Assembly (NCBI GenBank): GCA_020724545.1
Contig: DYGR01000001.1
Location: forward strand, 34,033-58,032
Reading direction: 5' to 3'
Length of the DNA stretch: 24,000 nt
From: Candidatus Methanoperedens nitratireducens
GTDB taxonomy: Archaea > Halobacteriota > Methanosarcinia > Methanosarcinales > Methanoperedenaceae
This document shows positions 1,979 to 15,554 of this stretch, in pieces. Within the stretch, counting starts at the first letter, position 1; each line of letters starts with the position of its first letter. The notes under the pieces were generated by a model. It was given only the letters and a program-made list of their open reading frames with translations, searched no databases and was not told the origin of the DNA. Position numbers and translations under genes: made by a program.

Positions 1979-1986
1979 AAAATAAA

Positions 1987-2415
1987 ATGAAAGAAGCAGA
2001 TAAAATAAATCATCTGGCAGAACTGGGTTTTAAAATAGCTCAACCAAACGGCTATAAACCGCATGCTGTAGAACGATTATTTCGTGAATCAGTAAAAGCG
2101 ATCACAGATCTTCACGGTATAGATTTGTCAGATAATGACTATAAAGCCACGATATCGGGGCGAATCCAGAAAACAATAGAACGAATGGGTGATGACCAAG
2201 CTTTCATTCCAGATAGAAAAGGTCTGGATATCAAAGCTGATGAGTTTGCAGAGTATTTTGTAAACAATATTTTAAAAGATATTTGCAACGGTAAACCAGG
2301 CAGACTTAAAAAAATGTCAAATAACCTTGCAGATGGCTATTATGCATCCACTCTACGATTGAAACGCCAATATTGGAATGAAAAAAATCAAAACAAAAAG
2401 GAGGAAAATAAATGA
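1987..2415 (+). CDS. cas11: Putative stand-alone small subunit (Cas11-like), about 142 aa
   Basis: Small, apparently helical, Lys/Glu-rich ORF between the large subunit and cas7. A GAGGTG RBS at 1972-1977 sits 9 nt before ATG 1987; the alternative GTG 1975 overlaps the upstream stop. Its stop overlaps the cas7 start (ATGA at 2412-2415). The call rests on position and size only. Confidence 0.45.
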   Translation: MKEADKINHLAELGFKIAQPNGYKPHAVERLFRESVKAITDLHGIDLSDNDYKATISGRIQKTIERMGDDQAFIPDRKGLDIKADEFAEYFVNNILKDICNGKPGRLKKMSNNLADGYYASTLRLKRQYWNEKNQNKKEENK

Positions 2416-3416
2416 GTCTTGATGAAATAAAAAAGAAATTATCAATAGGTCTTGTTGAAAAGCATATAAACGAACCAAGTGCACATTATGTCCACATCCT
2501 GCTTTTACGAGAATTGCAGTCAAGCGCAATTTTTACTACAAACGGTCAAGATGCAGATATCACTACTGTTGGGATAAATGCAGATGATGGTATCGTAGAA
2601 TATTCACCTGTCATGATGTTCAAAAGAAAACAGACAGGGAGTGACAGACGTAAAGGAAAAGAGCTACAAAGGAATTTTGTCGCCATCAAGGACACTATGA
2701 GCGTAAATGAAATGGCTCCTGATTCACCCGAATCGGTGCTCTATGGCAGCGCAGCCGGTGAAAATGCTATATCAGTTACATCTAGAGTTATGTATGATAC
2801 AGCCTATTCTATCAGGGATTCAAGTGTAATTGTTGAGGAGAAATTCCAGAACGCTCCAGGGGATGAATATGCAAAAGGTGCAACTACAGCCATTAGAGAA
2901 CCTGATTTCATTATGCCTAGAACTTTATTCCCCTGTGTTATAACATTAAGAGATGCCACATTCGATGAACTAATATTTGTTCTTGGAATAACAAAAATGA
3001 ATAAACGCTACGGCGCTGTCACATCCAGAATAGGGAGAATGGAAAATCACATACTGGGGATATACTCTGGTACTGAGGAAGGCACTGCAAATTTAATACT
3101 TTCTCAGGAAGTTGCGCGGCGCATAGCAAAGGAAAATGAAAAATTAACGGCTGAAAATATATCGAAGGTTCTATATAGTACTGTGCTGGATATCGAAAAA
3201 GTAAAAAAATATGTCCGGCAGGCATATGATGAGGATATTACAAAACTGAATATTAAAGCCCTTGATAATGCCGACACGAAAGAACTATTAGATCTGGTAA
3301 ACGCTGAAACAATCACACAATCATTACAGAAACTGCAAAAAGCTTCAGTAGAGTTTATAAAAGAAGTCAATCAATCGAACAAATCAAGCAAGAAAAATGA
3401 GAAAAAAGGGGATTGA
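2412..3416 (+). CDS. cas7: Cas7 backbone subunit (Csc2-like rather than DevR/Csh2-like)
   Basis: 334 aa, in the position between the small subunit and cas5, with an AAGGAGGA RBS at 2398-2405. I did not see the glycine-rich loop I associate with I-A/I-B/I-C Cas7. It has a long helical, Lys-rich C-terminal tail. The family call is by context. Confidence 0.6.
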   Translation: MSLDEIKKKLSIGLVEKHINEPSAHYVHILLLRELQSSAIFTTNGQDADITTVGINADDGIVEYSPVMMFKRKQTGSDRRKGKELQRNFVAIKDTMSVNEMAPDSPESVLYGSAAGENAISVTSRVMYDTAYSIRDSSVIVEEKFQNAPGDEYAKGATTAIREPDFIMPRTLFPCVITLRDATFDELIFVLGITKMNKRYGAVTSRIGRMENHILGIYSGTEEGTANLILSQEVARRIAKENEKLTAENISKVLYSTVLDIEKVKKYVRQAYDEDITKLNIKALDNADTKELLDLVNAETITQSLQKLQKASVEFIKEVNQSNKSSKKNEKKGD

Positions 3417-4217
3417 TTGATGAGTGATAGTTTTCCGGTAGTTAAATGCTCGATTGAAACTCTTGATCGCACGCTTTATGCCTCAAGAGAAGTCGGAGAC
3501 CTTGTAGATTCAGGTGATTATATACTTAATACCGCATTGTACTACGGCCTTGGTTTTGTTTCAGGACAGTATATCAATATTGGTAATACTCCGAACTATA
3601 TAAAAGATACTTCGGATATATTTAAAAAAATATACATAACACCTGCTTCTATGGAATCAACAGATGTTTATCTTAAAACTGTTTATGGTGAGGATAGGAA
3701 GCTATCGGAGAACTCAAAATTTTTACCAAAGCTTGGCGGTCATTCAACCAGTCAGTGGAATGCACGGCCACATCTATATGCAGTGAAAAACTGGAAAGCG
3801 ACTGATAAGGATTATCCCTATAAAGGTCTGAATTTACCTAAATTCGGCAGGGAACGAGTTATCGATCAGCAAAATCTCTTCACATCTTTCATATTTCCAT
3901 ATGAATTAGATGCTGAGCAAATAGTTTCTAAAATTCCAAGATATGTACGATTGGGCAAAAAGAAGTCTAAAGTAAGAGTTAAAACAGAGATTGTTGAGGC
4001 ATTTACAGAAGAAGGAGAGTTTATTGCCAATCATCCGTTTGGGATATACGACTATGAAGGATTACCAATTGGAGATCTCATTTCTGTTCGCATGCGTCCC
4101 ATGCCGCTGATAATACAGGGACGATACAAAGGAAAATTCATAAAGATACTGCAAGGAAAAACCAAAAAGGATGTAGTCTTACCTTATAAACTCGAACTGT
4201 TAAAGGTAAAACGATGA
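3417..4217 (+). CDS. cas5: Cas5 subunit (Csc1-like)
   Basis: 266 aa, starting right after the cas7 stop (TTG 3417, or more likely ATG 3420). The stop overlaps the cas3 start (ATGA). The N-terminus (..LYASREVGD...ILNTALYYGLGF..) resembles what I recall of Csc1-type Cas5. Confidence 0.55.
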   Translation: MMSDSFPVVKCSIETLDRTLYASREVGDLVDSGDYILNTALYYGLGFVSGQYINIGNTPNYIKDTSDIFKKIYITPASMESTDVYLKTVYGEDRKLSENSKFLPKLGGHSTSQWNARPHLYAVKNWKATDKDYPYKGLNLPKFGRERVIDQQNLFTSFIFPYELDAEQIVSKIPRYVRLGKKKSKVRVKTEIVEAFTEEGEFIANHPFGIYDYEGLPIGDLISVRMRPMPLIIQGRYKGKFIKILQGKTKKDVVLPYKLELLKVKR

Positions 4218-6316
4218 TGTCAGGAAATAATAATGATGACCTGCGTATCTTTTTAGAAGGTTTGCGCCTTCCACAGTTTGATTATGAATATTTTCCAGGA
4301 TTTCAGGCTTATGAGCACCAGTATAAAAGTGAACAGCTAATAAAAAAAGAAAAATCGCTTTTTTTATTTAATCACAGTCCCACTGGTTCAGGAAAAACAA
4401 TTTCATGGCTTAAACCAGCGCTGGACGAGAGAATGAAGGTCATTGCAATTTATCCTACAAATGCGCTTGTCATTGACCAAAAAATGCAGGTTGATACTGT
4501 CATTAAAAAGTTTGGATATAATCCTGATAAATATCATATTCAGGCAGTGACAGGAGATTTACTTGATAAAGAACGTGAATTGTATCCGGATGAAAAAGGT
4601 CTTACAAAAGGTCAGCTTTTTAACCGCATTATCCGAAAATCGCGAGGAAAAGGACTTATTTTACTTACCAACCCTGACATTCTCACGCTAGCGCTTAAAA
4701 ATGCATATTATGAGCATAATATCAGAGAAGCAGTCAGGAGCGTGGATATGATCGTGATAGACGAGTTTCATTTAGCATCTATCAAGCAATGTGATATGCT
4801 TCTTTACATGATGCATGAAATCAATGATGATCCACGCAGCCGCCTTTCAAAATTTGTTTTTTTGAGCGCCACACCTCAAAATAAAATCGTTGATAGGTCT
4901 AAAAAAGTGGGTTTAAATGTTGTTATGCTTGATGATAAAAGCACTCCATTATCGTTATCAGAAGGCAAAGCCATATTGCCAAAATTAAACCTGTTATTCA
5001 AAAAAGGTTCTATTTTCAATACATATGAAATAATCAAAGATAATATCGAATATTTTATAAATTTTTGCAGTAAACCGTTGCCAGATGGAAAAAAAGCAAA
5101 AACAGTCTTCATTCTTGATGGAATCACTGAAGTTGATGAGATATACAATATTCTAAAAGGATCAAGCGATTTAAGAATCGAACGCATAGATGGTCTCCAT
5201 CAGGCTACCCCTGAAAAACTTAACTCATTCGACGTTTTAGTTTCAAATTCTTCTATAGAAGTAGGAATTGATTTCAATGTTGATAGACTGGTTTTTACAG
5301 GATATTCAGAAAGCAGTTTTATACAGCGTATGGGACGATTGAGAAACAAACTGCCTAATGAAATTTATGACGCTATCTGCTTTGTTCCTGAAGTAGTTAT
5401 CGATCATCTTAAAAGCATGAATAGGAGAACTATAACACGCCATGAACTCAAAACAAAATTAGAAGCTATACTTACCACAGAGCTTGATTTATCATCCTAT
5501 TCTAAGATTTATTCACCACTGGAAGCTTTTCTGTATTTAAGTCGGAGAATAGACGGGAAGATTTGGAAAAGTAAAGATGGCATAGAGCACCATGAGAAAG
5601 GTATGCCTGAAGCGATTCAAGGTCAAGAATATATTAGAACTTTAAATCTTATTGAAAAACATTTTCTAGATGAAGAAATCGATGGAAGGAAATTGGATTA
5701 TTTTAAAACCGAAGCATATAGATTAAAAGAAGGACTTCTCAATTATCGTGGAAAACATTTGCAAGTATTGATGTTTGATACATCTGATTCTCAATTGAAG
5801 CTTTATGATTTGATGTACCTGCTCAGGCGTGGCAATGTTGAGTTCATGTCCCCTCAAAAGTTCACAAATCGGCTGAGGAGTGAATTTGGAATTAAGTATG
5901 ATAATGAAATTAAACAAATATATGATTCCAAGAAACCCTTTGCTGCTGGTTTTTGCTGGTATTCAGGCATCTTAGAAGAAGCGCGTAAGATATTGTTCAA
6001 AGGCGATTCTAATGAACATTATATACGAATAATGTTCAACTCCAGTGATAATGCGCGTAAACCCCAAATGGTGAGGGGTTTCAAGGTCAAAACTGAACCA
6101 AACATTTCTACATTATCTGTTTTGAATGATACTTTAACAGAATTTGAAATCTTTTCACGATTGATAGAAATGGATAGTTTTGCATTAAAAGCCAAGTTCA
6201 AGTTAAGTGATTTTTTCTATCTATATCCTTATTCTGGAATGCGGAGTGTGGCTTTCGGGCATGAGGCACTGTATATAGATTGTCTGATAAAGGAAGAATA
6301 TGCGCGAAGAAAATGA
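4214..6316 (+). CDS. cas3: Cas3' SF2 helicase without a recognisable HD nuclease domain
   Basis: Helicase motifs are visible: I (SPTGSGKT, ~residue 55), II (VIDEFH), III (LSATPQ) and VI (QRMGRLRN). Motif I lies only ~55 residues from the N-terminus, and no H..HD..D pattern appears at either end. Confidence 0.85.
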   Translation: MMSGNNNDDLRIFLEGLRLPQFDYEYFPGFQAYEHQYKSEQLIKKEKSLFLFNHSPTGSGKTISWLKPALDERMKVIAIYPTNALVIDQKMQVDTVIKKFGYNPDKYHIQAVTGDLLDKERELYPDEKGLTKGQLFNRIIRKSRGKGLILLTNPDILTLALKNAYYEHNIREAVRSVDMIVIDEFHLASIKQCDMLLYMMHEINDDPRSRLSKFVFLSATPQNKIVDRSKKVGLNVVMLDDKSTPLSLSEGKAILPKLNLLFKKGSIFNTYEIIKDNIEYFINFCSKPLPDGKKAKTVFILDGITEVDEIYNILKGSSDLRIERIDGLHQATPEKLNSFDVLVSNSSIEVGIDFNVDRLVFTGYSESSFIQRMGRLRNKLPNEIYDAICFVPEVVIDHLKSMNRRTITRHELKTKLEAILTTELDLSSYSKIYSPLEAFLYLSRRIDGKIWKSKDGIEHHEKGMPEAIQGQEYIRTLNLIEKHFLDEEIDGRKLDYFKTEAYRLKEGLLNYRGKHLQVLMFDTSDSQLKLYDLMYLLRRGNVEFMSPQKFTNRLRSEFGIKYDNEIKQIYDSKKPFAAGFCWYSGILEEARKILFKGDSNEHYIRIMFNSSDNARKPQMVRGFKVKTEPNISTLSVLNDTLTEFEIFSRLIEMDSFALKAKFKLSDFFYLYPYSGMRSVAFGHEALYIDCLIKEEYARRK

Positions 6317-6872
6317 TTTTGTCAATGTTGGGGACATTAACCAGTATTTATACTGTCCAAGAAGATTTTATTATATATGTTATTATAACACAATCGAAAT
6401 GAATTTTTATTTAAAAGATGGTCAGCTTAAACACGAAAATCAATCAAGAAGAGGGAACTGGATAAGGGAATTATACCTTAAGTCAAAAAAGCTCAAGCTC
6501 CATGGCAAGATAGATGTTCTTGAGTCAAAAAATATTAAATCTGGTTTTATAATAACTCCTATCGAACGCAAACGCGGCACGTCTTACTATAATAACGATG
6601 AAATCCAGCTTGCCGCCTACTGCATGCTCCTTGAAGATTATCTTGATGAGCCTGTAAAACTTGGCTATATCTATCTTTTCGGCACAAACGAGCGCTATGC
6701 CATCACAATAACCGACTGGCACCGGGAAAAGGTCATCGAAACCGTGGAAAACATAAGAACAATGCACCTTGAATCCATACCAGGTTTCGCAGATAATCCC
6801 AATAAGTGTAAAAAATGCAGTACATCCCAGTACTGCCTGCCTCTTGAAACAAAGATACTGGAGGGTGGTTAA
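6300..6872 (+). CDS. cas4: Cas4 RecB-like nuclease with a 4-Cys cluster
   Basis: Visible motifs: YLYCPRRFYY (N-terminal Cys), GKIDVL, IERKRG, QLAAYC, and the C-terminal CKKCSTSQYC. Confidence 0.9.
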   Translation: MREENDFVNVGDINQYLYCPRRFYYICYYNTIEMNFYLKDGQLKHENQSRRGNWIRELYLKSKKLKLHGKIDVLESKNIKSGFIITPIERKRGTSYYNNDEIQLAAYCMLLEDYLDEPVKLGYIYLFGTNERYAITITDWHREKVIETVENIRTMHLESIPGFADNPNKCKKCSTSQYCLPLETKILEGG

Positions 6873-6876
6873 TAAA

Positions 6877-7875
6877 ATGAAAGAGAGTGAAGGAATATTC
6901 TACGACAGCGTGGTATTTGTCACCACGCAGGGAAGCGTAATAGGCATTGACGGCGGACGGATCAGGGTAACAAAAAAGGGCGAGGGCGAACTTGCATCGT
7001 TCCCTGTGGGCAAAGTTGATACAATCAACGTCTTCGGAGGTGTGAACTTCACCACCCCTTTTGTGGCAAGTGCAAATGAGCACGGCATAGTGCTCAACTA
7101 TTTCACAGAGAATGGAGCGTACCGCGGCAGTTTTGTACCGGAAAAGAACACAATAGCAGAGATCAGGAGGCGCCAGTATGCACAGAGCAATGCGGAAAAG
7201 CTTGCAATCGCCAGAAAGATCGTTCGGGCTAAAATCCACAATTCAAGAATACTTCTTCAAAGGAAAGGTGTGAAATCCACGGATAAGCTGCTGGATATTG
7301 AGGTTCGCGTGCTCGAAGACAGGAGTATCAGGACTATTGACGGGCTCATGGGTTTTGAGGGGCAGGCTTCCGATATCTATTTCGGCCTGCTTGATGAATG
7401 CCTTGTGGACGGGTGGACGTTTGAGAGGCGAACCAGGCGCCCGCCCGAAGACCATATCAACGCGCTTCTGTCCCTCACGTACACTATGATAAAGAACGAA
7501 GTCTTAAGCGCTCTCCGGCAGTATAACCTTGACCCGTTCCTGGGGATTATGCATGCCGACAGGCACGGGCGGCCGGCGCTTGCGCTTGATCTGATGGAGG
7601 AGTTCAGGGCGATATTCTGCGATGCGTTTGTGCTACGCCTTGTGAACCGGGGTGAAATCACGCATGATGATTTTGGTCTGGATAACAGATTGAAAAAGGA
7701 TGCTTTTAAGAAATATCTTGAAAAGTTTGATGAGTACATGAAAGAAGAATTCAGCCATCCTAAGTTCGAATATACGGTCAATCGCAGAAAAGCCGTCCGG
7801 ATGCAGACTATTCTTTTGCGAAAAGCCATAACAGGCGAACTGAAAGAGTACCATCCTCTGGAGTATAATAAATGA
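6877..7875 (+). CDS. cas1: Cas1 integrase
   Basis: Motifs PPEDHINALLSLTY and GIMHADRHGRPALALDLMEEFR. The ORF track starts at 6769, inside cas4. ATG 6877 follows the cas4 stop and a GGAGGGTGG RBS at 6860-6868, so it is the likelier start. Confidence 0.95.
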   Translation: MKESEGIFYDSVVFVTTQGSVIGIDGGRIRVTKKGEGELASFPVGKVDTINVFGGVNFTTPFVASANEHGIVLNYFTENGAYRGSFVPEKNTIAEIRRRQYAQSNAEKLAIARKIVRAKIHNSRILLQRKGVKSTDKLLDIEVRVLEDRSIRTIDGLMGFEGQASDIYFGLLDECLVDGWTFERRTRRPPEDHINALLSLTYTMIKNEVLSALRQYNLDPFLGIMHADRHGRPALALDLMEEFRAIFCDAFVLRLVNRGEITHDDFGLDNRLKKDAFKKYLEKFDEYMKEEFSHPKFEYTVNRRKAVRMQTILLRKAITGELKEYHPLEYNK

Positions 7876-8138
7876 GATTTGTAATTACTTATGATATAAG
7901 TGATGACAGTATCCGCCGGCAGGTATTCAGGACACTTCAGGAGTTCGGTGCGTGGAAACAGTACAGTGTCTTTGAACTGGAGATCGACAGGATTGAGCGG
8001 ATTGAACTGGAAGATCGGCTCAAGAGTATAATAGACAGCAGTGATAAGATCAGGATGTATTCTTTGTGCGACAGGTGCGTAAACAATATAACAGAACTTG
8101 GCGAAAAGACGCCGGTAAAAAAATCCAATGTTGTATAG
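7872..8138 (+). CDS. cas2: Cas2
   Basis: 88 aa beginning MRFVITYDISDD.., with WKQYSVFE. ATGA overlap with the cas1 stop, directly upstream of the leader and array. Confidence 0.9.
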   Translation: MRFVITYDISDDSIRRQVFRTLQEFGAWKQYSVFELEIDRIERIELEDRLKSIIDSSDKIRMYSLCDRCVNNITELGEKTPVKKSNVV

Positions 8139-8271: not shown

Positions 8272-9485
8272 GTTGCAATCGATTAGAAGACCCAAAAGGG
8301 ATTGAAACAAGAGCTCGCCCATCTCTCCTTCGATGATGAGCAGGTTGCAATCGATTAGAAGACCCAAAAGGGATTGAAACAGAAATGACCTCCGCCGATA
8401 CTGAAAGATACTGGAAAAGTTGCAATCGATTAGAAGACCCAAAAGGGATTGAAACTATTCTATTCTCAAGATCTTCCTTTTTTTCTATATTCAGTTGCAA
8501 TCGATTAGAAGACCCAAAAGGGATTGAAACATACAAGTTCACGGTGTTCAGCGCCCCGTTCTCTCGTTGCAATCGATTAGAAGACCCAAAAGGGATTGAA
8601 ACCGAGCAACACCCAGAGGCGCGGCTCATACCTACACAGTTGCAATCGATTAGAAGACCCAAAAGGGATTGAAACAAGAGCTCGCCCATCTCTCCTTCGA
8701 TGATGAGCAGCGGTTGCAATCGATTAGAAGACCCAAAAGGGATTGAAACGTGCTGTGCCTGTGCTTGCAGTATCTACAGAGCATTTAGTTGCAATCGATT
8801 AGAAGACCCAAAAGGGATTGAAACTTATATGGGACGTAGCTTTAGAAGTTGCTAAACCAGTTGCAATCGATTAGAAGACCCAAAAGGGATTGAAACATTT
8901 AACTTGACTGAAGACGAAAAATGCGGTAAATGTGGTTGCAATCGATTAGAAGACCCAAAAGGGATTGAAACTAATCTTCGCATCATAAAGGAGGAAATAT
9001 GCAGCTAAGTTGCAATCGATTAGAAGACCCAAAAGGGATTGAAACGTATAAGAGTTTCTCCAGACAATGTATTCCTGGAGTGGTTGCAATCGATTAGAAG
9101 ACCCAAAAGGGATTGAAACTTGGTCTGCACTTCTGAGCCGTCCAGATACCATGTAGTTGCAATCGATTAGAAGACCCAAAAGGGATTGAAACATATCACG
9201 GTTGACGCTGTTGAAAAAGCACTGGCAAAGTTGCAATCGATTAGAAGACCCAAAAGGGATTGAAACCATGCCCATGAACGTCCACATCGTGTGCCTCCAG
9301 AACGTGTTGCAATCGATTAGAAGACCCAAAAGGGATTGAAACATAAGGATTTAACCGAACAGTGTCTTAATATAGTTGCAATCGATTAGAAGACCCAAAA
9401 GGGATTGAAACTCTTTTCTTGGTCGTCCTCTTCTTGGTTCTTTCTTCAGTTGCAATCGATTAGAAGACCCAAAAGGGATTGAAAC
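8272..9485 (+). CRISPR. CRISPR array: 17 identical 37-nt repeats (GTTGCAATCGATTAGAAGACCCAAAAGGGATTGAAAC) and 16 spacers of 32-39 nt
   Basis: Repeat starts counted by hand: 8272, 8344, 8419, 8494, 8566, 8639, 8713, 8788, 8860, 8935, 9009, 9083, 9156, 9230, 9306, 9375, 9449. The repeat contains a CCC-AAAA-GGG mini-hairpin just before the ATTGAAAC 8-nt handle, and an AATCGATT palindrome. Confidence 0.98.
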
Positions 9486-9838
9486 TCTTCGAAAGGGCGT
9501 TGCCTTGATGTCGTTAGAGATAGATATATATTAATTCCGATTGTAGCATAATGGATATGAGCATTGAATATACAGGAATTAATAAGGAGACGGTAGCAGG
9601 AGAGATTGAGAATTTTCTTGAATCCTGCCCGGAGGATACTGTATTTAAAATGGTGATTAATTCAAAGCGGGGATACCTCAGAATCAAGATAAAGAACGTC
9701 AACAAGAGCAGAATAAAGAAGTTACTGGGGAGATTGAGACGAAAACAGTCGGATATAATGTCAACTTCTCCGCCCTGAATGGCTGGAGCTTGCCGTGATG
9801 GAGGCAACTAAGAGTTGTACTAGGAGGCATTAAAAAAT
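9486..9838 (+). ncRNA. Candidate omega RNA (HEARO-like) region upstream of the IsrB-like gene; unverified
   Basis: A 353-nt gap of the size expected for an IscB/IsrB guide-plus-scaffold RNA, encoded 5' of the nuclease ORF. TATA-like ATATATATTA at ~9524-9533. Direct 10-nt repeat GAGATTGAGA at ~9601-9610 and ~9731-9740. No structure model could be run. A 75-aa ORF (9551-9778) competes for the same sequence. Confidence 0.3.
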
Positions 9839-11104
9839 ATGCAGACGCAGAAAAGCTACAAGAACGTTGGGATGCAAACCCTAGTCCCAAATAATTCGGC
9901 AGAACCATTCAATGCCACGTTCAGCGAAGCTGAGCTAAGCTTTTTTAGCAACTCCGAAGGGTGCTCAACTGAACTGGAACGGGTTGCAATCAACAGAATT
10001 CCAGTATTGAGCAAGAACGGAACACCTCTAATGCCGTGCAAACCAGCAAAAGCAAGAAAATTATTGGAATCAGGGAAAGCCATCAAAAAGTGGTCTAAAC
10101 TTGGAATATTCTATATCCAACTAACTTTTGACCCAACATCAGAACCTAACAAGAATCAGAAAGTAGTCTTAGGAATAGACCCTGGCTCAAAGTTTGACGG
10201 CTATGCCGTAACTACTGAGATAGTCAATCTTACAGGAATGTCAGAACTACCATCAGGAATCGCTGACAAGTTAGAAACCAGAAGAAGAATGCGAAGAGCA
10301 AGAAGGTACAGAAACACAAGACATAGACCCTGTAGGTTCGATAACAGGAACAGGGAAGGATTCATAGCGCCATCTCAAAGAGCGAAGGTCGAGTTCAGGT
10401 TAAAAATCGTAAAAGAACTATGCAAGCTATACCCTGCAACTGATTTTGCAGTAGAAGATGTAAGGTTTAATCATTACGAAAAGAGATGGGGCAAGCATTT
10501 CTCTACAGTAGAGATAGGGAAAACCATTCTATACACTGAACTGCAAAAGATAGGTACTCTGCACTTCTTTAATGGTTATGAAACAAAAGAAACAAGAGAA
10601 AAGCTCAGTCTAAAGAAATCGTCTAAAAAAGAATCAAGGAAACCAGAATCACATGCAACTGACGCAATAGCATTGGCATTCATGGTCAAGCCGATTAAGG
10701 TTACTTCGATATATCCATTCTATGTGTGGAAGAGATATCAGAATGCAAAAAGACAATTGCATAGACTTGAACCTGATACGGATGGCATCAGAAGAAGGTA
10801 TGGCGGCTCTAACTCGCTGAATCCGTTCAAGAAAAACGATGTAGTAAGATTCAAAGGAGAACTTGCTAGAGTTGGAGGATTTATGGATAAAAAAATATCA
10901 TTACACAACTATAATCTTAACAATAAAAGATTCACGCAAAATGCAACGTTAGATAATTGTTATCGATTATTCAACCAGAGAATAATGTTTGAAGTTGAAC
11001 ACGACAACAGGAGCGTAAATCCTGTATATATCAATGCAAGGGGTACGCTTCCTCCCGCCGCTAAAGCGGGTGGGTTTCCCCTACCCCTTGACCCCACGCT
11101 ATGA
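9839..11104 (+). CDS. isrB: IsrB-like OMEGA nuclease (PLMP domain + RRXRR bridge helix + split RuvC, no HNH)
   Basis: PLMP motif (VLSKNGTPLMPCKPAKARKLL, residues ~55-76). RuvC-I VLGIDPGSKFDGYAV (D114). Arg-rich helix ETRRRMRRARRYRNTRHRPCRFDNR. RuvC-II FAVEDVRF (E206). RuvC-III ESHATDAIALA (H272/D275). C-terminal DVVRFKGELARVGGF domain. Only ~65 residues separate RuvC-II from RuvC-III, and they contain no CxxC/H-N-H motif. AGGAGG RBS at 9822-9827. Confidence 0.75.
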   Translation: MQTQKSYKNVGMQTLVPNNSAEPFNATFSEAELSFFSNSEGCSTELERVAINRIPVLSKNGTPLMPCKPAKARKLLESGKAIKKWSKLGIFYIQLTFDPTSEPNKNQKVVLGIDPGSKFDGYAVTTEIVNLTGMSELPSGIADKLETRRRMRRARRYRNTRHRPCRFDNRNREGFIAPSQRAKVEFRLKIVKELCKLYPATDFAVEDVRFNHYEKRWGKHFSTVEIGKTILYTELQKIGTLHFFNGYETKETREKLSLKKSSKKESRKPESHATDAIALAFMVKPIKVTSIYPFYVWKRYQNAKRQLHRLEPDTDGIRRRYGGSNSLNPFKKNDVVRFKGELARVGGFMDKKISLHNYNLNNKRFTQNATLDNCYRLFNQRIMFEVEHDNRSVNPVYINARGTLPPAAKAGGFPLPLDPTL

Positions 11105-13019: not shown

Positions 13020-13307
13020 GTGATTCTGATGCTTATAGATTACATAAACAAAGCAATGAATAAAGCAGAATACGATAAACTGGAGGATGGTACCTTTTTT
13101 GGGAAGATTCCAGAATGTCCGGGCGTTCTTGCTTTTGGAAAAACGCTTTTTGAATGTCAGAATGAGCTAAGATCGGTACTTGAAGGCTGGATGATAGTTA
13201 AGATAAGACATGGCGATAGATTGCCTGTGATAGACGATCTCGATATTAATAAAGGAATTCCATCGGTCAATAAAAGAAATGAATTACAAAGTCAGCATTG
13301 TTATTGA
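13020..13307 (+). CDS. HicB-like (UPF0150 fold) antitoxin-family protein
   Basis: Pattern KAEYDKLEDGTFFGKIPECPGVLAFGKTLFECQNELRSVLEGWM matches the HicB/UPF0150 signature (..edG.y.g.iP.lpG..a.G.TleEa...l...le.w). The start may be ATG 13029 rather than GTG 13020. Confidence 0.6.
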   Translation: MILMLIDYINKAMNKAEYDKLEDGTFFGKIPECPGVLAFGKTLFECQNELRSVLEGWMIVKIRHGDRLPVIDDLDINKGIPSVNKRNELQSQHCY

Positions 13308-13431
13308 AAAAGATGAATATGGGTATTATGCTTATTGTCCGGAGCTTGAAGGATGTCAAACTCAGGGTGATTCTTTAGATGAAATAATGGTAAATATCAA
13401 AGAGGCTATCGAACTCTATCTGGAGACATAA
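13279..13431 (+). CDS. Second HicB-like small protein (50 aa), absent from the ORF track
   Basis: Hand translation: MNYKVSIVIEKDEYGYYAYCPELEGCQTQGDSLDEIMVNIKEAIELYLET*. This is the classic minimal HicB/UPF0150 pattern. It overlaps the upstream ORF by 29 nt. Confidence 0.6.
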   Translation: MNYKVSIVIEKDEYGYYAYCPELEGCQTQGDSLDEIMVNIKEAIELYLET

Positions 13432-13433
13432 AA

Positions 13434-13465
13434 AACCGCAGATGAACGCGGATAAACGCGGATGG
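13434..13465. repeat. Module A: three direct units CGCAGAT/CGCGGAT/CGCGGAT at 10-nt period (half module)
   Basis: Units at 13437-43, 13447-53 and 13457-63. There is no adjacent inverted arm; the inverse copies lie at 13926-13952. Confidence 0.85.
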
Positions 13466-13479
13466 CTGTTGTTCATCTT

Positions 13480-13545
13480 GACAGGATAACAGGATTAACA
13501 GGATTAAAATACAAAATATATCCTGTCAATCCTGTTAATCCTGTC
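13480..13545. repeat. Module B: 3x ACAGGAT, AT-rich loop, 3x ATCCTGT
   Basis: Forward units at 13481, 13489 and 13498; inverted units at 13520, 13529 and 13538. The outer ends GACAGGAT / ATCCTGTC are exact complements. Confidence 0.9.
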
Positions 13546-13565
13546 TGAATACGAGAAATTGACGG

Positions 13566-13847
13566 ATGGTCTCGACAGAACTCGAAGAAAATAAAGAAAA
13601 AATAAAAAATTATTGCGTAAAGAGAATTGGATTATTCGGCTCGTACATCAGAAACGAACAAAAATCTATGAGCGATATCCTTATCGAATTCGAAAAAGGT
13701 AAAGTAACATTTGACAACTACATGGATCTTAAATTCTTTCTAGAAGATCTGTTGAAATGTAAAGTTGATCTTGTAATGCATGACGCAATTAAACCTGATT
13801 TAAAACCATATGTTCTTGGGCGTGTAGAATATGCAGCGAACGAATGA
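13566..13847 (+). CDS. Minimal nucleotidyltransferase (MNT antitoxin family) with a degenerate metal-binding motif
   Basis: RIGLFGSYIRNEQKSMSDILIEFEKG matches the h-G-S-x(9-13)-D-x-D NTase pattern, except that SDILIEF replaces the usual SDIDLLVEF. The second Asp is therefore missing. Confidence 0.8.
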   Translation: MVSTELEENKEKIKNYCVKRIGLFGSYIRNEQKSMSDILIEFEKGKVTFDNYMDLKFFLEDLLKCKVDLVMHDAIKPDLKPYVLGRVEYAANE

Positions 13848-13925
13848 GGCATATCTTAACAATATTCTTGAATATAGCTATAAAATCGACAAATATAAAG
13901 AAAACATGGCTTTTGTTAATTGTGT
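13831..13925 (+). pseudogene. 5' remnant of a HEPN (DUF86) toxin gene, truncated by repeat modules
   Basis: MQRTNEAYLNNILEYSYKIDKYKENMAF resembles DUF86 N-termini (..YL.DIL.....I..Y...M.F) and overlaps the MNT stop, as in MNT-HEPN operons. From ~13926 the frame only translates tandem and inverted repeats (VSAFICVHLRLI...), and no Rx4-6H motif follows. Confidence 0.55.
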
Positions 13926-13994
13926 ATCTGCGTTCATCTGCGTTCATCTGCGGTTAATATTTTGTCCACCGCAAAGAACGCAGAGAACGCAAAG
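13926..13994. repeat. Module C: 3x ATCTGCG(TTC), loop, then CGCAAAG/CGCAGAG/CGCAAAG
   Basis: Left units at 13926, 13936 and 13946 (10-nt period); right units at 13970, 13979 and 13988 (9-nt period). The arms are imperfect complements. Confidence 0.85.
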
Positions 13995-14056
13995 CATAAC
14001 TACAATCTTTGCGAATTTTACGCCCTGGTATGAAAAAGTATTACAGCAGCGGCGTA

Positions 14057-14130
14057 GAACACGGATCAAACGGATATTCACGGGTAATTTCAATCCGTGC
14101 CAATCCGTGTCATCCGTGCAATCCGTGTTC
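14057..14130. repeat. Module D: ACGGAT, ACGGAT, ACGGGT, short loop, 4x ATCCGT(G)
   Basis: Forward units at 14061, 14070 and 14080; inverted units at 14093, 14103, 14112 and 14121. The outer 10-mers GAACACGGAT / ATCCGTGTTC are exact complements. Confidence 0.9.
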
Positions 14131-14165
14131 GATCACAATTGTTCTGTCATGAAAAAGACGATTAA

Positions 14166-14235
14166 CAACGAACTCAAAACGAACTTAAACGAACTCATAA
14201 GCCCGAGTTCGTATCGAGTTCGTACCAGTTCGTTG
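14166..14235. repeat. Module E: 3x ACGAACT, loop, 3x AGTTCGT
   Basis: Forward units at 14168, 14179 and 14189; inverted units at 14206, 14217 and 14227. The outer ends CAACGAACT / AGTTCGTTG are exact complements. Confidence 0.9.
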
Positions 14236-14298
14236 TTTATATTATCCGAACCACATCGGAATCTAAGATGCGATATAATTGAACTTTTTCATACCAGG

Positions 14299-14356
14299 AC
14301 ACAGAGAGCGCGGAGATTTTTTAAATATGTCTCTGTGTTCTCTGTGCTCTCTGTGG
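14299..14356. repeat. Module F: CACAGAGAG + degenerate unit, AT-rich loop, 3x CTCTGTG
   Basis: Inverted units at 14331, 14340 and 14349. The left arm keeps one good unit (14300-14308) and a degenerate one (CGCGGAGA). Confidence 0.8.
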
Positions 14357-14396
14357 TTTTAACTTCTCGTATAGCTTCTAAGTCACGGAGGCATGG

Positions 14397-15554
14397 ATGT
14401 ATCTAACACCTGATGAAGAAAAGCTCCTCAATGGAGAGCGCGGCCCAACATACCAGAAGGCTATCGAAATACTTGTTGCCCTCGGAGACATCTATGATGC
14501 CGACAGGCTGATTCCCATAAAAAGCGCACAGATCGCAGGTGTCTCGTACAAGACCATAGGCGATGCTGGCCTTGAGTGGATATCTGATCTAAAAGGAAAA
14601 GTGGCAGTACCCTCGATCCTGAATCCCGCTGGGATGGACAGGGAATGCTGGAGGGAGATGGGAATAGCAGGGGATTTTGCAGATAAGCAGGATAAGATCA
14701 TAAGGGCATACGAGGCGCTTGGTGTAAGAACTGAATGCACCTGTACTCCGTACAGCATCTTTGATGATCTGGCAGGATTGGGTGACCATGTGGCGTGGAG
14801 CGAATCCTCAGCCATCTCATATGCCAACTCTGTCATCGGGGCGCGAACGAACAGGGAGGGAGGACCAAGTGCACTTGCAGCGGCATTAACAGGCAAAACA
14901 CCGAATTTTGGATATCATCTGGATGAGAACAGAAGGCCCGCTATCTTAATCCAGGTAGATGCAGAGCTTCACGATTCTGATTACGGGGCTCTCGGGTATA
15001 TCGTGGGTGAGATAGCAGGAGACAGGGTTCCGTTTTTTAAACTCGAATCCACGCCATCAAAGGATGAACTTAAATCACTGGGTGCAGCGATGGCAGCGTC
15101 AGGCGCTGTGGCATTGTACCATGTCCAGGGTATCACACCTGAAGCCTGGAAATATGAACCTCCCGCTGAGAAGATCACGATAGAGGAGAGACAGATAAAA
15201 GAGGTGTATTCATCAGGTACACCTGACCTGATAGCATTCGGATGCCCTCACAGCAGCATTGATGAGCTTGAGCGGTTAGCACGACTATTAGATGGAAAAA
15301 AGGTGAAGAAGGAAGTATGGATATGCACCTCACGCGCCGTAAAGAGAGAGCATCCTCTTCTGGTAGAGCGCATAGAGAGAAGCGGTGCAAAGGTTTTCTG
15401 TGATACATGCATGGTGGTGTCCCCTGCAAGTGAGAGGTTCACCTGCATGATGGTAAATTCAGGCAAAGCGCATAAGTATGTGCCTAACCTGTGCGGCGTG
15501 AAGAGTATCCTTGCAACTACTGAGGAATGCATTGCTGCTGCACTGAGGGGTTAA
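14397..15554 (+). CDS. Aconitase X (DUF521) catalytic/large subunit; probable phosphomevalonate dehydratase large subunit
   Basis: 385 aa. MYLTPDEEKLLNGERGP...SAQIAGVSYKTIGDAGLEW...NPAGMD...C.C.PY...ESSA.SYANSV.GARTN is typical of the AcnX large subunit. GGAGG RBS at 14387-14391. The pathway role is inferred from ubiX/ubiD nearby. Confidence 0.8.
   Translation: MYLTPDEEKLLNGERGPTYQKAIEILVALGDIYDADRLIPIKSAQIAGVSYKTIGDAGLEWISDLKGKVAVPSILNPAGMDRECWREMGIAGDFADKQDKIIRAYEALGVRTECTCTPYSIFDDLAGLGDHVAWSESSAISYANSVIGARTNREGGPSALAAALTGKTPNFGYHLDENRRPAILIQVDAELHDSDYGALGYIVGEIAGDRVPFFKLESTPSKDELKSLGAAMAASGAVALYHVQGITPEAWKYEPPAEKITIEERQIKEVYSSGTPDLIAFGCPHSSIDELERLARLLDGKKVKKEVWICTSRAVKREHPLLVERIERSGAKVFCDTCMVVSPASERFTCMMVNSGKAHKYVPNLCGVKSILATTEECIAAALRG

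What the first reader, a model, noticed from the sequence alone, without database searches (positions are those of the whole stretch)
13434..14356. Six palindromic modules with shared architecture but different 7-nt cores
Within ~900 bp there are six modules. Each is built from about three direct copies of a 7-nt core spaced 9-10 nt apart (roughly one helical turn), a short loop, then about three inverted copies. The cores differ: CGCrGAT, ACAGGAT, ATCTGCG/CGCArAG, ACGGAT, ACGAACT and CACAGAG. The architecture is conserved while the sequence is not. That is not expected from simple duplication, CRISPR, REP/BIME-like elements or a single MITE family. The modules fill every intergenic gap of a small toxin-antitoxin islet, and they replace the body of a HEPN gene. 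They create the spurious 191-aa ORF with peptide repeats such as VSVFSVLSVV. As DNA they could be phased protein-binding arrays. As RNA or ssDNA they would form long bulged hairpins. I know of no named element class that matches this description.
Basis: seen in the sequence. Interest (0 to 1): 0.75.

Follow-up and report, generated by a model that had tools for sequence, protein, structure and literature searches.

The report
Hairpin relics of nuclease gene cassettes
The "modules" are gene-less copies and fragments of a very widespread family of short palindromic DNA elements, for which I found no name; each arm is about three 10-base repeats, elsewhere the same arms flank small GxxExxY nuclease genes, and here the elements have piled up in a variable hot spot of a methane-oxidising archaeon and broken several toxin-antitoxin genes.

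Summary
The repeats are real. Ten of the window's 14 arrays with three or more copies of a 7-mer lie in 13437-14357 (shuffles give a mean of 1.6). M2, M4, M5 and M6 fold as bulged hairpins (-33 to -35 kcal/mol, z -4.9 to -8.6).

The anatomy needs correcting. M1 is a solo left arm, and its partner is the left half of "M3", 462 nt away. The right half of "M3" starts a different hairpin.

The cores are not idiosyncratic. CGCRGAT, CACGGAT, CACAGAG and CGCAAAG arms recur in more than 120 genome stretches from many bacterial phyla and from archaea. The shared grammar is TTARC-C, then (CRCNNNN plus a 3-nt spacer) three times. 91% of arms have three copies and 84% of steps are 10 nt.

The same arms are the inverted ends of small GxxExxY/PDDEXK_3 nuclease genes. 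49 of 69 such genes have matched arms (0 of 69 when shuffled), and the start codon usually lies inside the left arm.

In related Ca. Methanoperedens genomes the ubiD-acnX junction is either empty or holds fewer modules. In the window, arms mark the break points of HicB-like, MNT and HEPN genes.

Best reading: these are MITE/REPIN-like gene-less relatives of a cassette family I found described nowhere. The mobilising enzyme is not established.

The parts
13279..13431 (+). HicB-like antitoxin gene, cut off at codon 50 of about 69. Homology to the intact gene in L254 ends at ...GAGAC, 8 nt before the first base (13434) of M1.
   Evidence: Pfam HicB_lk_antitox. Alignment to L254 4709-4918.
13434..13463 (+). 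M1: a solo left arm, AACC-GCAGAT GAA CGCGGAT AAA CGCGGAT. There is no local inverted copy. It is complementary to 13926-13957, with G.U wobbles on the + strand.
   Evidence: The same arm (TAACCGCAGATGAACGCAGATGAACGCAGAT) follows ubiD in Ca. Methanoperedens L145.
13478..13547 (.). M2: a complete hairpin with core ACAGGAT/ATCCTGT, three copies per arm at a period of 8-9 nt.
   Evidence: RNA fold -34.6 kcal/mol, z -8.4. Similar ACAGGAT hairpins occur in L227, L157 and L218.
13566..13847 (+). MNT (MntA-type nucleotidyltransferase antitoxin) gene lying between M1 and its partner arm. About the first 27 nt of the ancestral gene have been replaced, so it encodes 93 aa against 100 aa in relatives.
   Evidence: Pfam NTP_transf_2/Polbeta. 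NCBIfam MntA, below cut-off. Homologues and alignment.
13831..13915 (+). HEPN/HepT toxin remnant. About 28 codons (MQRTNEAYLNNILEYSYKIDKYKENMAF) are homologous to the intact HepT of L254, and then homology stops.
   Evidence: The same break point is seen in L252.
13926..13957 (+). The left half of 'M3', which is the right arm ATCTGCG TTC ATCTGCG TTC ATCTGCG-GTTAA and the partner of M1.
   Evidence: An identical arm sits at the same place in L252 4381-4410.
13967..14028 (.). CGCAAAG/CGCAGAG hairpin. The left arm (13967-13996) is intact. The right arm (14006-14028) has decayed. The hairpin is complete in L252 4426-4490.
   Evidence: The fold here is not better than chance, z -1.1.
14024..14298 (.). 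Segment absent from L252. It is bracketed by a perfect 16-nt inverted repeat (14024-14039 and 14283-14298) and contains M4 and M5.
14057..14130 (.). M4: a hairpin with core CACGGAT/ATCCGTG, three copies on the left arm and four on the right.
   Evidence: Fold -32.7 kcal/mol, z -4.9. The inner 30 nt are nearly identical to a hairpin in L145. The same core occurs in four other loci.
14161..14240 (.). M5: a hairpin with core ACGAACT/AGTTCGT, three copies per arm at a period of 10-11 nt. This core was not found anywhere else.
   Evidence: Fold -34.3 kcal/mol, z -8.6. Absent from 1.14 Mb of loci and from hairpins in viral contigs.
14297..14357 (+). M6: a hairpin with core CACAGAG/CTCTGTG. The left arm has two copies (CACAGAG, CGCGGAG). 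The right arm has three copies and ends ...CTGTGG-TTTTAA. It is much more stable on the + strand (-34.0 against -21.8 kcal/mol) because of G.U pairs.
   Evidence: The same core forms the ends of a GxxExxY gene in a Bacteroides finegoldii isolate (L450) and hairpins in L156, L224 and L129.
13831..14406 (+). 191-aa ORF. It is an artefact made of the HEPN remnant fused to a read-through of the repeat arms.
   Evidence: No Pfam family. The ATCYGYG strand of arms is stop-free in 209 of 329 arms.

Best explanation
The 13434-14357 stretch is an accumulation of gene-less members of one very widespread family of short palindromic elements. It holds four complete hairpins, one hairpin split by 462 nt, and one half-decayed hairpin.

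Each end (arm) of such an element is normally three units of about 10 nt. A unit is a 7-nt core that usually begins CRC, followed by a 2-4 nt spacer. The outer edge reads (T)TARC-C or GGAAC-C. The other arm is the reverse complement.

In many bacteria the same arms are the inverted ends of a small cassette that carries one gene, a GxxExxY/PDDEXK_3 nuclease of about 125 aa, whose start codon usually lies inside the left arm. The window's modules stand to those cassettes as MITEs stand to insertion sequences, or as REPINs stand to a RAYT gene.

Shown: they belong to that repeat family. They sit in a variable insertion hot spot between ubiD and acnX of a Ca. Methanoperedens-like archaeon. Their arms coincide with the break points of three toxin-antitoxin genes.

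Inferred: the elements are, or were, mobile. New copies tend to land in or beside older ones, which gives nested and tandem arrangements. Recombination between arms produced the gene truncations.

More speculative: the three phased units per end are recognition sites for a protein acting in trans, with the GxxExxY nuclease as the candidate. When transcribed, the paired arms form a stem of about 30 bp that could affect processing or translation of whatever lies between them.
For: (1) The repeats and hairpins are far beyond chance.

By my own calculation about two matches are expected in 596 Gb on both strands with equal base frequencies. The hits are in Anaerolineae, Planctomycetota, Acidobacteriota, Cyanobacteria, Nitrospirota, Verrucomicrobiota, Bacteroidota, Methanosarcinales and Ca. 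Methanoperedens. Those loci also carry arms with the window's other cores: CACGGAT, CACAGAG, CGCAAAG and ACAGGAT.

(3) The grammar is shared across 329 arms. 299 have exactly three copies. 582 of 692 steps are 10 nt. C precedes the outermost copy in 82% of arms and A precedes inner copies in 78%. The upstream consensus is T-T-A-R-C.

(4) The link to GxxExxY genes is strong. The only two PDDEXK_3 genes in the 120 loci both lie between arms. About 30 of 37 family members have N-termini such as M-N/D-A/T-D-E-R/H-R, which is the arm translated. Of 69 metagenomic GxxExxY genes found by protein similarity, 61 have an upstream array and 49 also have the inverted partner within 200 nt downstream, against 0 of 69 in shuffled flanks. 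Isolate genomes show the same thing: Bacteroides finegoldii between radA and a gene annotated 'FAD-dependent protein', with CACAGAG arms, and Sphingomonas between fabD and fabG.

(5) Copies are discrete and dispersed. Paralogous copies within one genome are similar exactly from AGCCGCAGAT... to ...ATCTGCGGCT (L183/L191) or from GGCCCGCGGAT... to ...ATCCGCGGGCC (L173/L195), and their flanks are unrelated.

(6) Presence varies between related genomes. In Ca. Methanoperedens L254, ubiD abuts acnX with no islet. L252 has MNT, the same HEPN stump, the ATCTGCG arm and a complete CGCAAAG hairpin, but lacks M1, M2, M4, M5 and M6. L145 has three solo CCGCAGAT arms and a CACGGAT hairpin after ubiD.

(7) The HicB-like, MNT and HEPN homologies each end within a few to about 30 nt of an arm.
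Against: No GxxExxY gene was found in the window or in about 70 kb of Methanoperedens DNA that I fetched, so a mobilising enzyme in this organism is not shown.

Only 2 of about 120 arm-bearing genome loci carry the nuclease. None of 65 viral contigs with arms does, and no isolate phage encodes it.

No target-site duplication was seen in two comparisons of paralogues.

The nuclease is not a known transposase. Its predicted fold (pLDDT 91) matches lambda-exonuclease/Cas4-type PD-(D/E)XK cores only weakly (E 4e-4, TM 0.55).

The M5 core (ACGAACT) was found nowhere else, and the cores of M2 and M5 do not begin CRC.

The 120 genome loci were selected by the arm pattern itself, so only their number, their taxonomic spread and their additional unseeded arms count as evidence.

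Copy number within the source genome could not be measured.
Confidence: 0.6

Rival explanations
1. The arms are primarily RNA elements. When transcribed, the left and right arms pair into a stem of about 30 bp, or a local bulged hairpin. That stem is a processing or insulating signal that lets a small selfish gene sit inside operons, in the way rRNA processing stems and 23S rRNA intervening sequences are cut by RNase III. It could also mask the start codon. On this reading the gene-less hairpins are leftovers or mRNA-end stabilisers rather than transposing units. This can be true together with the main explanation.
For: The start codon of GxxExxY genes lies inside the left arm, and the right arm follows the stop codon closely. 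Cassettes sit in very short gaps between co-oriented genes: macB-macB in L247, L288 and L290, and fabD-fabG in L451. Mismatches between arms are G.U-compatible on the coding strand: M6 gives -34.0 against -21.8 kcal/mol, M1/M3-left pairs CGCGGAT with ATCTGCG, and L171 behaves the same way. Core variants differ mostly by transitions that keep the pairing.
Against: There are no expression data. Archaea lack a classical RNase III (established knowledge), yet the modules are present in Methanoperedens. The hairpins are not followed by U-tracts, so they are not intrinsic terminators; the few terminator-like hits come from small sub-stems. My attempt at a strand-asymmetry test over 65 hairpins was invalid, because a palindrome has no definable top strand. 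Solo arms in one orientation (L145, L234) cannot form such stems locally.
Confidence: 0.2
2. The modules are phased DNA-binding arrays, that is, operators for a host or toxin-antitoxin regulator. Sites repeat every helical turn, in direct and then inverted orientation, as in the operators of CtsR, PhoB, omega or ParR.
For: The 7-bp cores at a 10-bp period would lie on one face of the helix, and three per arm is the strongly preferred number. The window's modules lie among antitoxin genes.
Against: The same cores occur next to unrelated housekeeping genes in dozens of phyla, and no shared regulator or TA family stands out. They typically start a few nucleotides after a stop codon rather than at promoters. 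The spacers between cores are also complementary between arms. In the window the arms interrupt the TA genes rather than precede intact ones.
Confidence: 0.05
3. The islet is an integron-like cassette array, and the hairpins are attC-type recombination sites whose structure is conserved while the sequence varies.
For: The structure-over-sequence impression fits. The genes are small and co-oriented, many of them TA genes, and are separated by imperfect palindromes of 60-80 nt. Arrangements of arm-gene-arm-loop-arm elsewhere (L141, L250) resemble a gene inserted at a recombination site. The outer motif TTAAC...GTTAA faintly recalls the RYYYAAC...GTTRRRY core sites of attC.
Against: No tyrosine recombinase or integron integrase is among the ORFs tested in the window. 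The end consensus TTARC-CRC/GGAACC does not fit RYYYAAC/GTTRRRY. attC sites have no internal triple repeats (established knowledge). Elsewhere the elements occur singly between housekeeping genes, not in arrays beside an integrase.
Confidence: 0.05
4. The modules arose on the spot by replication slippage and palindrome formation (template switching) in AT-rich non-coding DNA. On this reading they are a local oddity with no homologues.
For: All copies within an arm carry the same core variant, and neighbouring modules differ. Local amplification of a single unit could produce that pattern.
Against: Near-identical arms and end motifs are present in more than 120 genome stretches of other phyla, in 65 viral contigs, and around GxxExxY genes. 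M1, M3 and M4 have close copies in other Methanoperedens genomes.
Confidence: 0.05

Closest known systems
REP/REPIN elements and their RAYT genes (Pseudomonas, E. coli)
   Same: Both are short imperfect palindromes dispersed in intergenic DNA, often just after stop codons. In both, two inverted units form a larger hairpin. In both, a small gene is itself flanked by the repeat while many gene-less copies exist. No target-site duplication is evident.
   Different: The arms here are built from three units of about 10 nt, not a single 20-40 nt palindrome. There is no GTAG/CGTC head. The flanked gene is a PD-(D/E)XK (GxxExxY) nuclease rather than a Y1 HUH transposase. That gene is multi-copy and is spread across bacterial phyla; the Pfam survey literature (PMC3424549) reports mixed bacterial and archaeal clades. 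The same cores are shared across phyla, whereas REP classes are lineage-specific.
[quoted passage not shown]
   Same: Both have terminal inverted repeats, a small size (60-130 bp), no coding capacity, discrete end-to-end copies with unrelated flanks, nesting, presence/absence polymorphism, and a larger relative with the same ends that carries a gene.
   Different: No target-site duplication was found. The gene-carrying relative does not encode any recognised transposase. The ends are internally repetitive, with three phased units. All units of both ends of one element share a core variant that differs between elements.
23S rRNA intervening sequences carrying a small ORF (the Pfam family 23S_rRNA_IVP, 'four helix bundle protein'), as I recall them from Leptospira and Coxiella
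   Same: Both are a small gene of unknown function enclosed by inverted repeats that form a long stem, tolerated inside transcribed units. The gene families are greatly expanded in the same kinds of genomes (Planctomycetota, Acidobacteriota, Bacteroidota, Cyanobacteria). This comparison rests on my own knowledge and was not tested here.
   Different: The enclosed protein family differs. A motif search found no member of that family in the fetched loci. I did not check whether those intervening sequences have decamer-array stems.
Integron attC sites and gene cassettes
   Same: Both are imperfect palindromes of 60-140 nt between small genes, often TA genes. In both, folding of one strand is thought to matter more than the sequence.
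   Different: There is no integrase, no RYYYAAC/GTTRRRY core sites and no internal triple repeat in attC. Elsewhere the elements occur singly among housekeeping genes.
Cyanobacterial and Beggiatoa heptamer tandem repeats (STRR; TAACTGA repeats, PMC4679880)
   Same: Both are 7-nt repeated cores in intergenic DNA, shared across distant phyla, with no known mechanism of spread.
   Different: Those are contiguous heptamers (period 7) in direct orientation, often just upstream of start codons. The arrays here have a 10-nt period with variable spacers, about three copies, and a reverse-complement partner arm.

Membership tests
Decamer-array arms that flank GxxExxY/PDDEXK_3 genes (family defined here) | An arm consists of 2-5 tandem units of about 10 nt with a 7-nt core that begins CRC. 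| tested here: met
   M1 (CGCRGAT), M3-left (ATCTGCG), M3-right (CGCARAG), M4 (CACGGAT) and M6 (CACAGAG/CGCGGAG) fit. M2 (ACAGGAT, period 8-9) and M5 (ACGAACT) have the architecture but not the CRC start.
Decamer-array arms that flank GxxExxY/PDDEXK_3 genes (family defined here) | The outer edge is (T)TARC-C or GGAAC-C on the left and its complement G-GYTAA or GGTTCC on the right. | tested here: met
   M1 begins AAAACC-GCAGAT and its partner ends ATCTGCGG-TTAA. M6 ends CTGTGG-TTTTAA. M5 is bounded by TTAAC-AACGAACT...AGTTCGTT-GTTTA. M4 is bounded by GAAC-AC...GT-GTTC.
Decamer-array arms that flank GxxExxY/PDDEXK_3 genes (family defined here) | The same cores are found as ends of GxxExxY genes or as hairpins in other genomes. 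| tested here: met
   CGCAGAT/CGCGGAT and CACAGAT occur as cassette ends. CACAGAG forms the cassette ends in Bacteroides L450. CACGGAT and CGCAAAG occur as hairpins. ACAGGAT is weaker, with one 3x case in L227. ACGAACT was not found.
Decamer-array arms that flank GxxExxY/PDDEXK_3 genes (family defined here) | A GxxExxY gene lies between the arms. | tested here: not met
   There is no PDDEXK_3 ORF in the window or in the related Methanoperedens loci. The M1/M3-left pair encloses M2, a truncated MNT gene and a HEPN stump instead.
MITE | Terminal inverted repeats, small size and no coding capacity. | tested here: met
MITE | Multiple dispersed copies in one genome, with similarity confined to the element. 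| tested here: inconclusive
   This is met in other genomes (L183/L191 and L173/L195). For the source genome, only the window's own contig and overlapping assemblies of the same locus were available, so its copy number is unknown.
MITE | Target-site duplication. | tested here: not met
   There is no direct repeat at the edges of L183, L191, L173 or L195. The apparent TTAA...TTAA is part of the inverted repeat, because the variants TTAG...CTAA are complementary rather than direct.
MITE | A related autonomous element with the same ends that encodes a transposase. | tested here: inconclusive
   GxxExxY cassettes share the ends. The protein is an uncharacterised minimal PD-(D/E)XK nuclease and no transposition activity is known for it.
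MITE | Presence/absence polymorphism between related genomes. | tested here: met
   L254 is empty, L252 is partly filled, and the window is filled further.
REP/REPIN-RAYT | A conserved GTAG or CGTC tetranucleotide at the head of a 20-40 nt palindrome. | tested here: not met
   The head consensus here is TTARC-CRC.
REP/REPIN-RAYT | A RAYT (Y1 HUH transposase) gene flanked by the repeats. | tested here: not met
   No such family appears among the 20 window ORFs tested or among the top 25 families listed for neighbours of 110 arms.
Integron attC | R'' RYYYAAC and R' GTTRRRY core sites at the two ends. | tested here: not met
   This was checked by inspection of the arm edges.
Integron attC | An adjacent integron integrase, and a match to the attC covariance model. 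| not tested
   No recombinase is among the window ORFs tested. An attC model is not available in these tools.
CRISPR | Direct repeats of 23-50 nt separated by unique spacers of similar length. | tested here: not met
   The period here is about 10 nt with 2-4 nt spacers. A genuine CRISPR array lies elsewhere in the window, at 8272-9485.

The most novel reading that the evidence does not exclude
The modules are the non-autonomous form of a class of mobile gene cassette, shared by Bacteria and Archaea, that has not been described. Its only protein is a PD-(D/E)XK (GxxExxY) nuclease of about 125 aa. Its ends are triple-decamer inverted arrays that are recognised, and kept uniform or re-synthesised as a set, by a mechanism unlike any known transposase, integrase or homing system.
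Probability: 0.3. Interest if true: 0.85.

Novelty: new variant of a known kind. Interest (0 to 1): 0.68.

Why it matters
If this holds, one repeat grammar explains several things at once. It accounts for a very common kind of unannotated intergenic hairpin in environmental bacteria and some archaea. It explains the odd N- and C-terminal extensions and long spurious ORFs that gene callers produce around these hairpins. It explains why contigs often break at GxxExxY genes.

It also gives the large GxxExxY/PDDEXK_3 family (more than 8,000 candidates in one search), whose function is unknown, a testable role as the protein partner of a selfish element.

It raises a concrete mechanistic puzzle. 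All copies in both arms of one element share a core variant, while neighbouring or orthologous elements differ.

For this locus, it shows that the toxin-antitoxin islet is a degraded insertion hot spot rather than a functional module.

Tried and rejected
1. A viral-contig scan for ACAGGAT x3 returned mostly 9-nt-period coding repeats, probably collagen-like. It was uninformative, and I switched to fixed 10-nt-period patterns.

3. Rfam at a permissive threshold gave only chance-level miRNA hits on the modules.

4. Pfam on the neighbours of arms in 110 loci was meant to test for TA or transposase enrichment. The neighbours are diverse housekeeping genes.

5. A search for other cargo genes between arms was noisy, and ten candidates gave nothing relevant.

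6. A strand-asymmetry test comparing the fold energy of each hairpin with that of its reverse complement over 65 hairpins was invalid, because a palindrome has no definable top strand. I discarded it.

7. A motif search for 23S-IVS four-helix-bundle proteins in the fetched loci found none.

8. The idea that three ATGA motifs at a 10-nt period supply a start and a stop in all three frames holds for only 30-50 of 329 arms, so I rejected it as a general design.

10. There is no GxxExxY gene in isolate phages.

11. Literature searches by literal sequence, family names and repeat terms found no description. The TAACTGA heptamer paper describes a different kind of repeat.

12. I considered a link to the IscB/HEARO element at 9760-11104 and dropped it, because no such genes recur near arms elsewhere.
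Full report
**Observation.** Tandem Repeats Finder and the repeat finder report nine arrays of period 9-11 nt between 13437 and 14355, and none of that kind elsewhere in the window. A scanner I wrote looks for at least three copies of a 7-mer, with at most one mismatch, at a period of 8-12 nt. It finds 14 arrays in 24 kb. Ten lie in 13437-14357 and the rest are low-complexity sequence. Shuffles of the window give a mean of 1.6 and a maximum of 6. About 25 kb of flanking DNA from the same organism contains none. M2, M4, M5 and M6 fold into hairpins of 7-8 bp helices separated by small internal loops. Their energies are -32.7 to -34.6 kcal/mol, with z-scores of -4.9 to -8.6.

**Corrected anatomy.**
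- M1 (13434-13463, AACC-GCAGAT GAA CGCGGAT AAA CGCGGAT) has no local inverted copy.
This pair encloses M2, the MNT gene and a HEPN stump.
- The right half of module 3 (13967-13996, CAC-CGCAAAG AA CGCAGAG AA CGCAAAG) is the left arm of a different hairpin. Its right arm has decayed here (14006-28) but is intact in a related genome.
- A perfect 16-nt inverted repeat (14024-14039 and 14283-14298) brackets M4 and M5.

**Surroundings and organism.** The window carries a type I-D CRISPR-Cas locus and array, an IscB-like gene, ubiX, ubiD, then the islet (HicB/UPF0150, a 50-aa HicB-like stump, MNT, a HEPN stump), then acnX, DUF2099 and an RPA-like gene. It comes from a 94-kb metagenome contig. The closest MNT homologues, and the syntenic ubiX-ubiD loci, are from Candidatus Methanoperedens MAGs.

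**The cores recur widely.** By my own arithmetic about two chance matches are expected. The hits span Anaerolineae, Planctomycetota, Acidobacteriota, Cyanobacteria, Nitrospirota, Verrucomicrobiota, Pseudomonadota, Methanosarcinales and Ca. Methanoperedens. Many have the reverse-complement array 10-200 nt away. The same loci hold further arrays that were not part of the search pattern, with the window's other cores: CACGGAT, CACAGAG, CGCAAAG/CGCAGAG, ACAGGAT and relatives such as CACAGAT, CGCCGAT, CACGAAG and CGCCAAG. A Bacteroides finegoldii plasmid has a 4+3 CGCAGAT hairpin 15 nt after the aspD stop codon. Sixty-five viral contigs also carry such arms.

**Shared grammar.** Across 329 arms, 299 have exactly three copies and 582 of 692 steps are 10 nt. 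The base before the outermost copy is C in 82% of arms, and the base before inner copies is A in 78%. The five bases upstream read T-T-A-R-C. This edge is mirrored at the other end, which shows that it is part of the inverted repeat and not a duplicated target: the variants TTAG...CTAA are complementary, not direct. Cores usually begin CRC. The last four positions vary between elements but are the same in all copies of both arms of one element. The architecture is therefore conserved, and so is much of the sequence.

**The gene that goes with the arms.**
- In L234 (an NC10 bacterium), three tandem left arms precede a 126-aa ORF and a right arm follows its stop codon. Pfam calls the ORF PDDEXK_3 (3e-41) and NCBIfam calls it GxxExxY, TIGR04256.
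- A phmmer search of all ORFs in the 120 loci found only one more member, in L141, and it also lies between arms.
- The family is very large: 7,980 of 8,000 scored candidates passed. About 30 of 37 aligned members begin M-N/D-A/T-D-E-R/H-R or KPQM..., which is the translation of CCRCAGATGAACRCAGATGAAC. Some end in YPCSSVSICG, which is the right arm translated.
- At the DNA level, L247 reads GGAACCACAGATGGACACAGATGAACACAGAT-gene-ATCCGTGTTCATCTGTGTCCATCTGTGGTTCC, wedged between two macB/ftsX genes.
- Of 69 GxxExxY genes retrieved from metagenomes by protein similarity alone, 61 have an upstream array. Forty-nine also have its inverted partner within 200 nt downstream, against 0 of 69 for shuffled flanks.
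- Cultured isolates show the same pattern. In Bacteroides finegoldii the gene lies between radA and the next gene, with CACAGAG/CTCTGTG...GG arms, which is the core of window M6. In Sphingomonas it lies between fabD and fabG.
- Arrangements of the form arm-gene-arm-loop-arm also occur (L141, L250).

**Evidence for movement.** Paralogous gene-less copies within a genome are similar exactly from one outer edge to the other, and their flanks are unrelated. L183 and L191 share 86-87 nt, and L173 and L195 share 126-133 nt. In Ca. Methanoperedens the ubiD-acnX junction takes three forms:
- It is empty in L254, where the ubiD stop codon abuts the acnX start codon. That genome has an intact MNT-HepT-HicB cluster elsewhere.
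- In L252 it holds an islet with MNT, the same HEPN stump, the ATCTGCG arm and a complete CGCAAAG hairpin, but none of M1, M2, M4, M5 or M6.
- In L145 ubiD is followed by three solo CCGCAGAT arms and a CACGGAT hairpin whose inner 30 nt nearly match M4.

The window therefore shows later additions, partly inside the right arm of an older hairpin. Homology of the HicB-like gene stops 8 nt before the first base of M1, at codon 50 of 69. MNT has lost about its first 27 nt. HEPN homology stops at codon 28, next to the ATCTGCG arm. Arms thus mark each break point.

**How it probably works.**
- Shown: the modules belong to this repeat family, they associate with GxxExxY cassettes, copies are discrete and dispersed, presence varies between genomes, the hairpins have strong folding potential, and TA genes are disrupted.
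- Inferred: the gene-less hairpins and solo arms are non-autonomous or decayed relatives of the cassettes. They insert in or near one another and recombine.
- Speculative: the three phased units at each end are binding sites for a factor acting in trans, and the enclosed nuclease is the obvious candidate. Its predicted structure (pLDDT 91) is a minimal PD-(D/E)XK core with weak similarity to lambda exonuclease and Cas4. This fits nucleic-acid cleavage but says nothing about specificity.
- An RNA role is compatible with all of this and is not excluded. The start codon lies in the left arm, cassettes sit in tiny gaps within operons, and arm mismatches are G.U-compatible on the coding strand (M6 gives -34.0 against -21.8 kcal/mol; M1 pairs with its partner through G.U).

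**Points against, or still open.**
- No GxxExxY gene was found in any Methanoperedens DNA that I fetched, or near the viral arms.
- No target-site duplication was seen.
- M5's core was found nowhere else.
- The uniformity of the core within an element is unexplained. In L234, three adjacent left arms read CGCAAAT, CGCAGAT and CACAGAT, and their spacers are visibly similar by eye. At one orthologous site the core is CACAGAT in one genome and CGCCGAT in two others.

**Comparison with known kinds.** The closest analogues are REPIN-RAYT systems and MITE-IS pairs. The membership tests fail on the defining details: there is no GTAG/CGTC head, no RAYT, no target-site duplication and no recognised transposase. 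Integron attC sites share the hairpin-between-small-genes picture, but not the core sites or an integrase. CRISPR is excluded by the 10-nt period. Contiguous heptamer repeats (STRR, TAACTGA) are a different pattern. No Rfam family matches. The paper library holds nothing on these arms or on repeats flanking GxxExxY genes. That library omits most subscription journals, so an earlier description cannot be excluded.

**Verdict.** The finding is real and is not a local oddity. The suspicion that the class has no name stands as far as I could check. I rate it a new variant of a known kind (small palindromic non-autonomous repeats). There is a fair chance that the underlying cassette system is a new class of mobile element.

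Noticed in passing
window 44-8138 and 8272-9485: A type I-D CRISPR-Cas locus (Csc2, Cas3-type helicase, Cas4, Cas1, Cas2), followed by a CRISPR array with the 37-nt repeat GTTGCAATCGATTAGAAGACCCAAAAGGGATTGAAAC. The array gives only a weak Rfam CRISPR-DR60 match.
   Followed up: partly
window 9760-11104: An IscB-like gene (RRXRR domain; NCBIfam guided_IscB 147 bits, below its cut-off of 175) has a HEARO/omega-RNA-like match overlapping its 5' end (49 bits, below the gathering score of 83). The pair is inserted between the CRISPR array and ubiX.
   Followed up: no
window 14024-14039 and 14283-14298: A perfect 16-nt inverted repeat (CCTGGTATGAAAAAGT / ACTTTTTCATACCAGG) brackets M4 and M5. The bracketed segment is absent from the related genome L252 and may be a larger composite insertion.
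   Followed up: partly
L254 2150-2160; L252 2661-4542; L145 1800-2400: The ubiD-acnX junction is a variable hot spot in Ca. Methanoperedens. It is empty in one MAG, holds an HNH-nuclease and MNT islet in another, and holds arms followed by a Cas6b gene in a third.
   Followed up: partly
L234 1790-2350: Three tandem left arms have similar inter-arm spacers but different cores (CGCAAAT, CGCAGAT, CACAGAT). Each arm is internally uniform. Only the last arm has a matching right arm, beyond the GxxExxY gene.
   Followed up: partly
L174 5430-6570: A Wenzhouxiangellaceae chromosome has four tandem 309-bp units. Each is bounded by a CGCAGAT left arm and an ATCTGCG right arm 156 nt apart.
   Followed up: no
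L452 300-900: In a Fusobacteria isolate plasmid, the GxxExxY gene is flanked by 22-bp direct repeats (AGATTTAATCCGTGTACCTAT) instead of triple-decamer inverted arms.
   Followed up: no
L414, L416, L430, L440 (viral contigs): Some predicted viral contigs carry four to seven CGCRGAT arms or hairpins each, with no GxxExxY gene nearby. They are possible vehicles for spread between phyla.
   Followed up: partly
arms in L125-L244 and L256-L335: The ATCYGYG strand of arms is free of stop codons in 209 of 329 arms, against 70 of 329 for the CRCRGAT strand. This explains read-through ORFs and the repeat-encoded extensions on annotated GxxExxY proteins. Many contigs that carry these genes are only about 1 kb long, which suggests that assemblies break at the arms.
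   Followed up: partly
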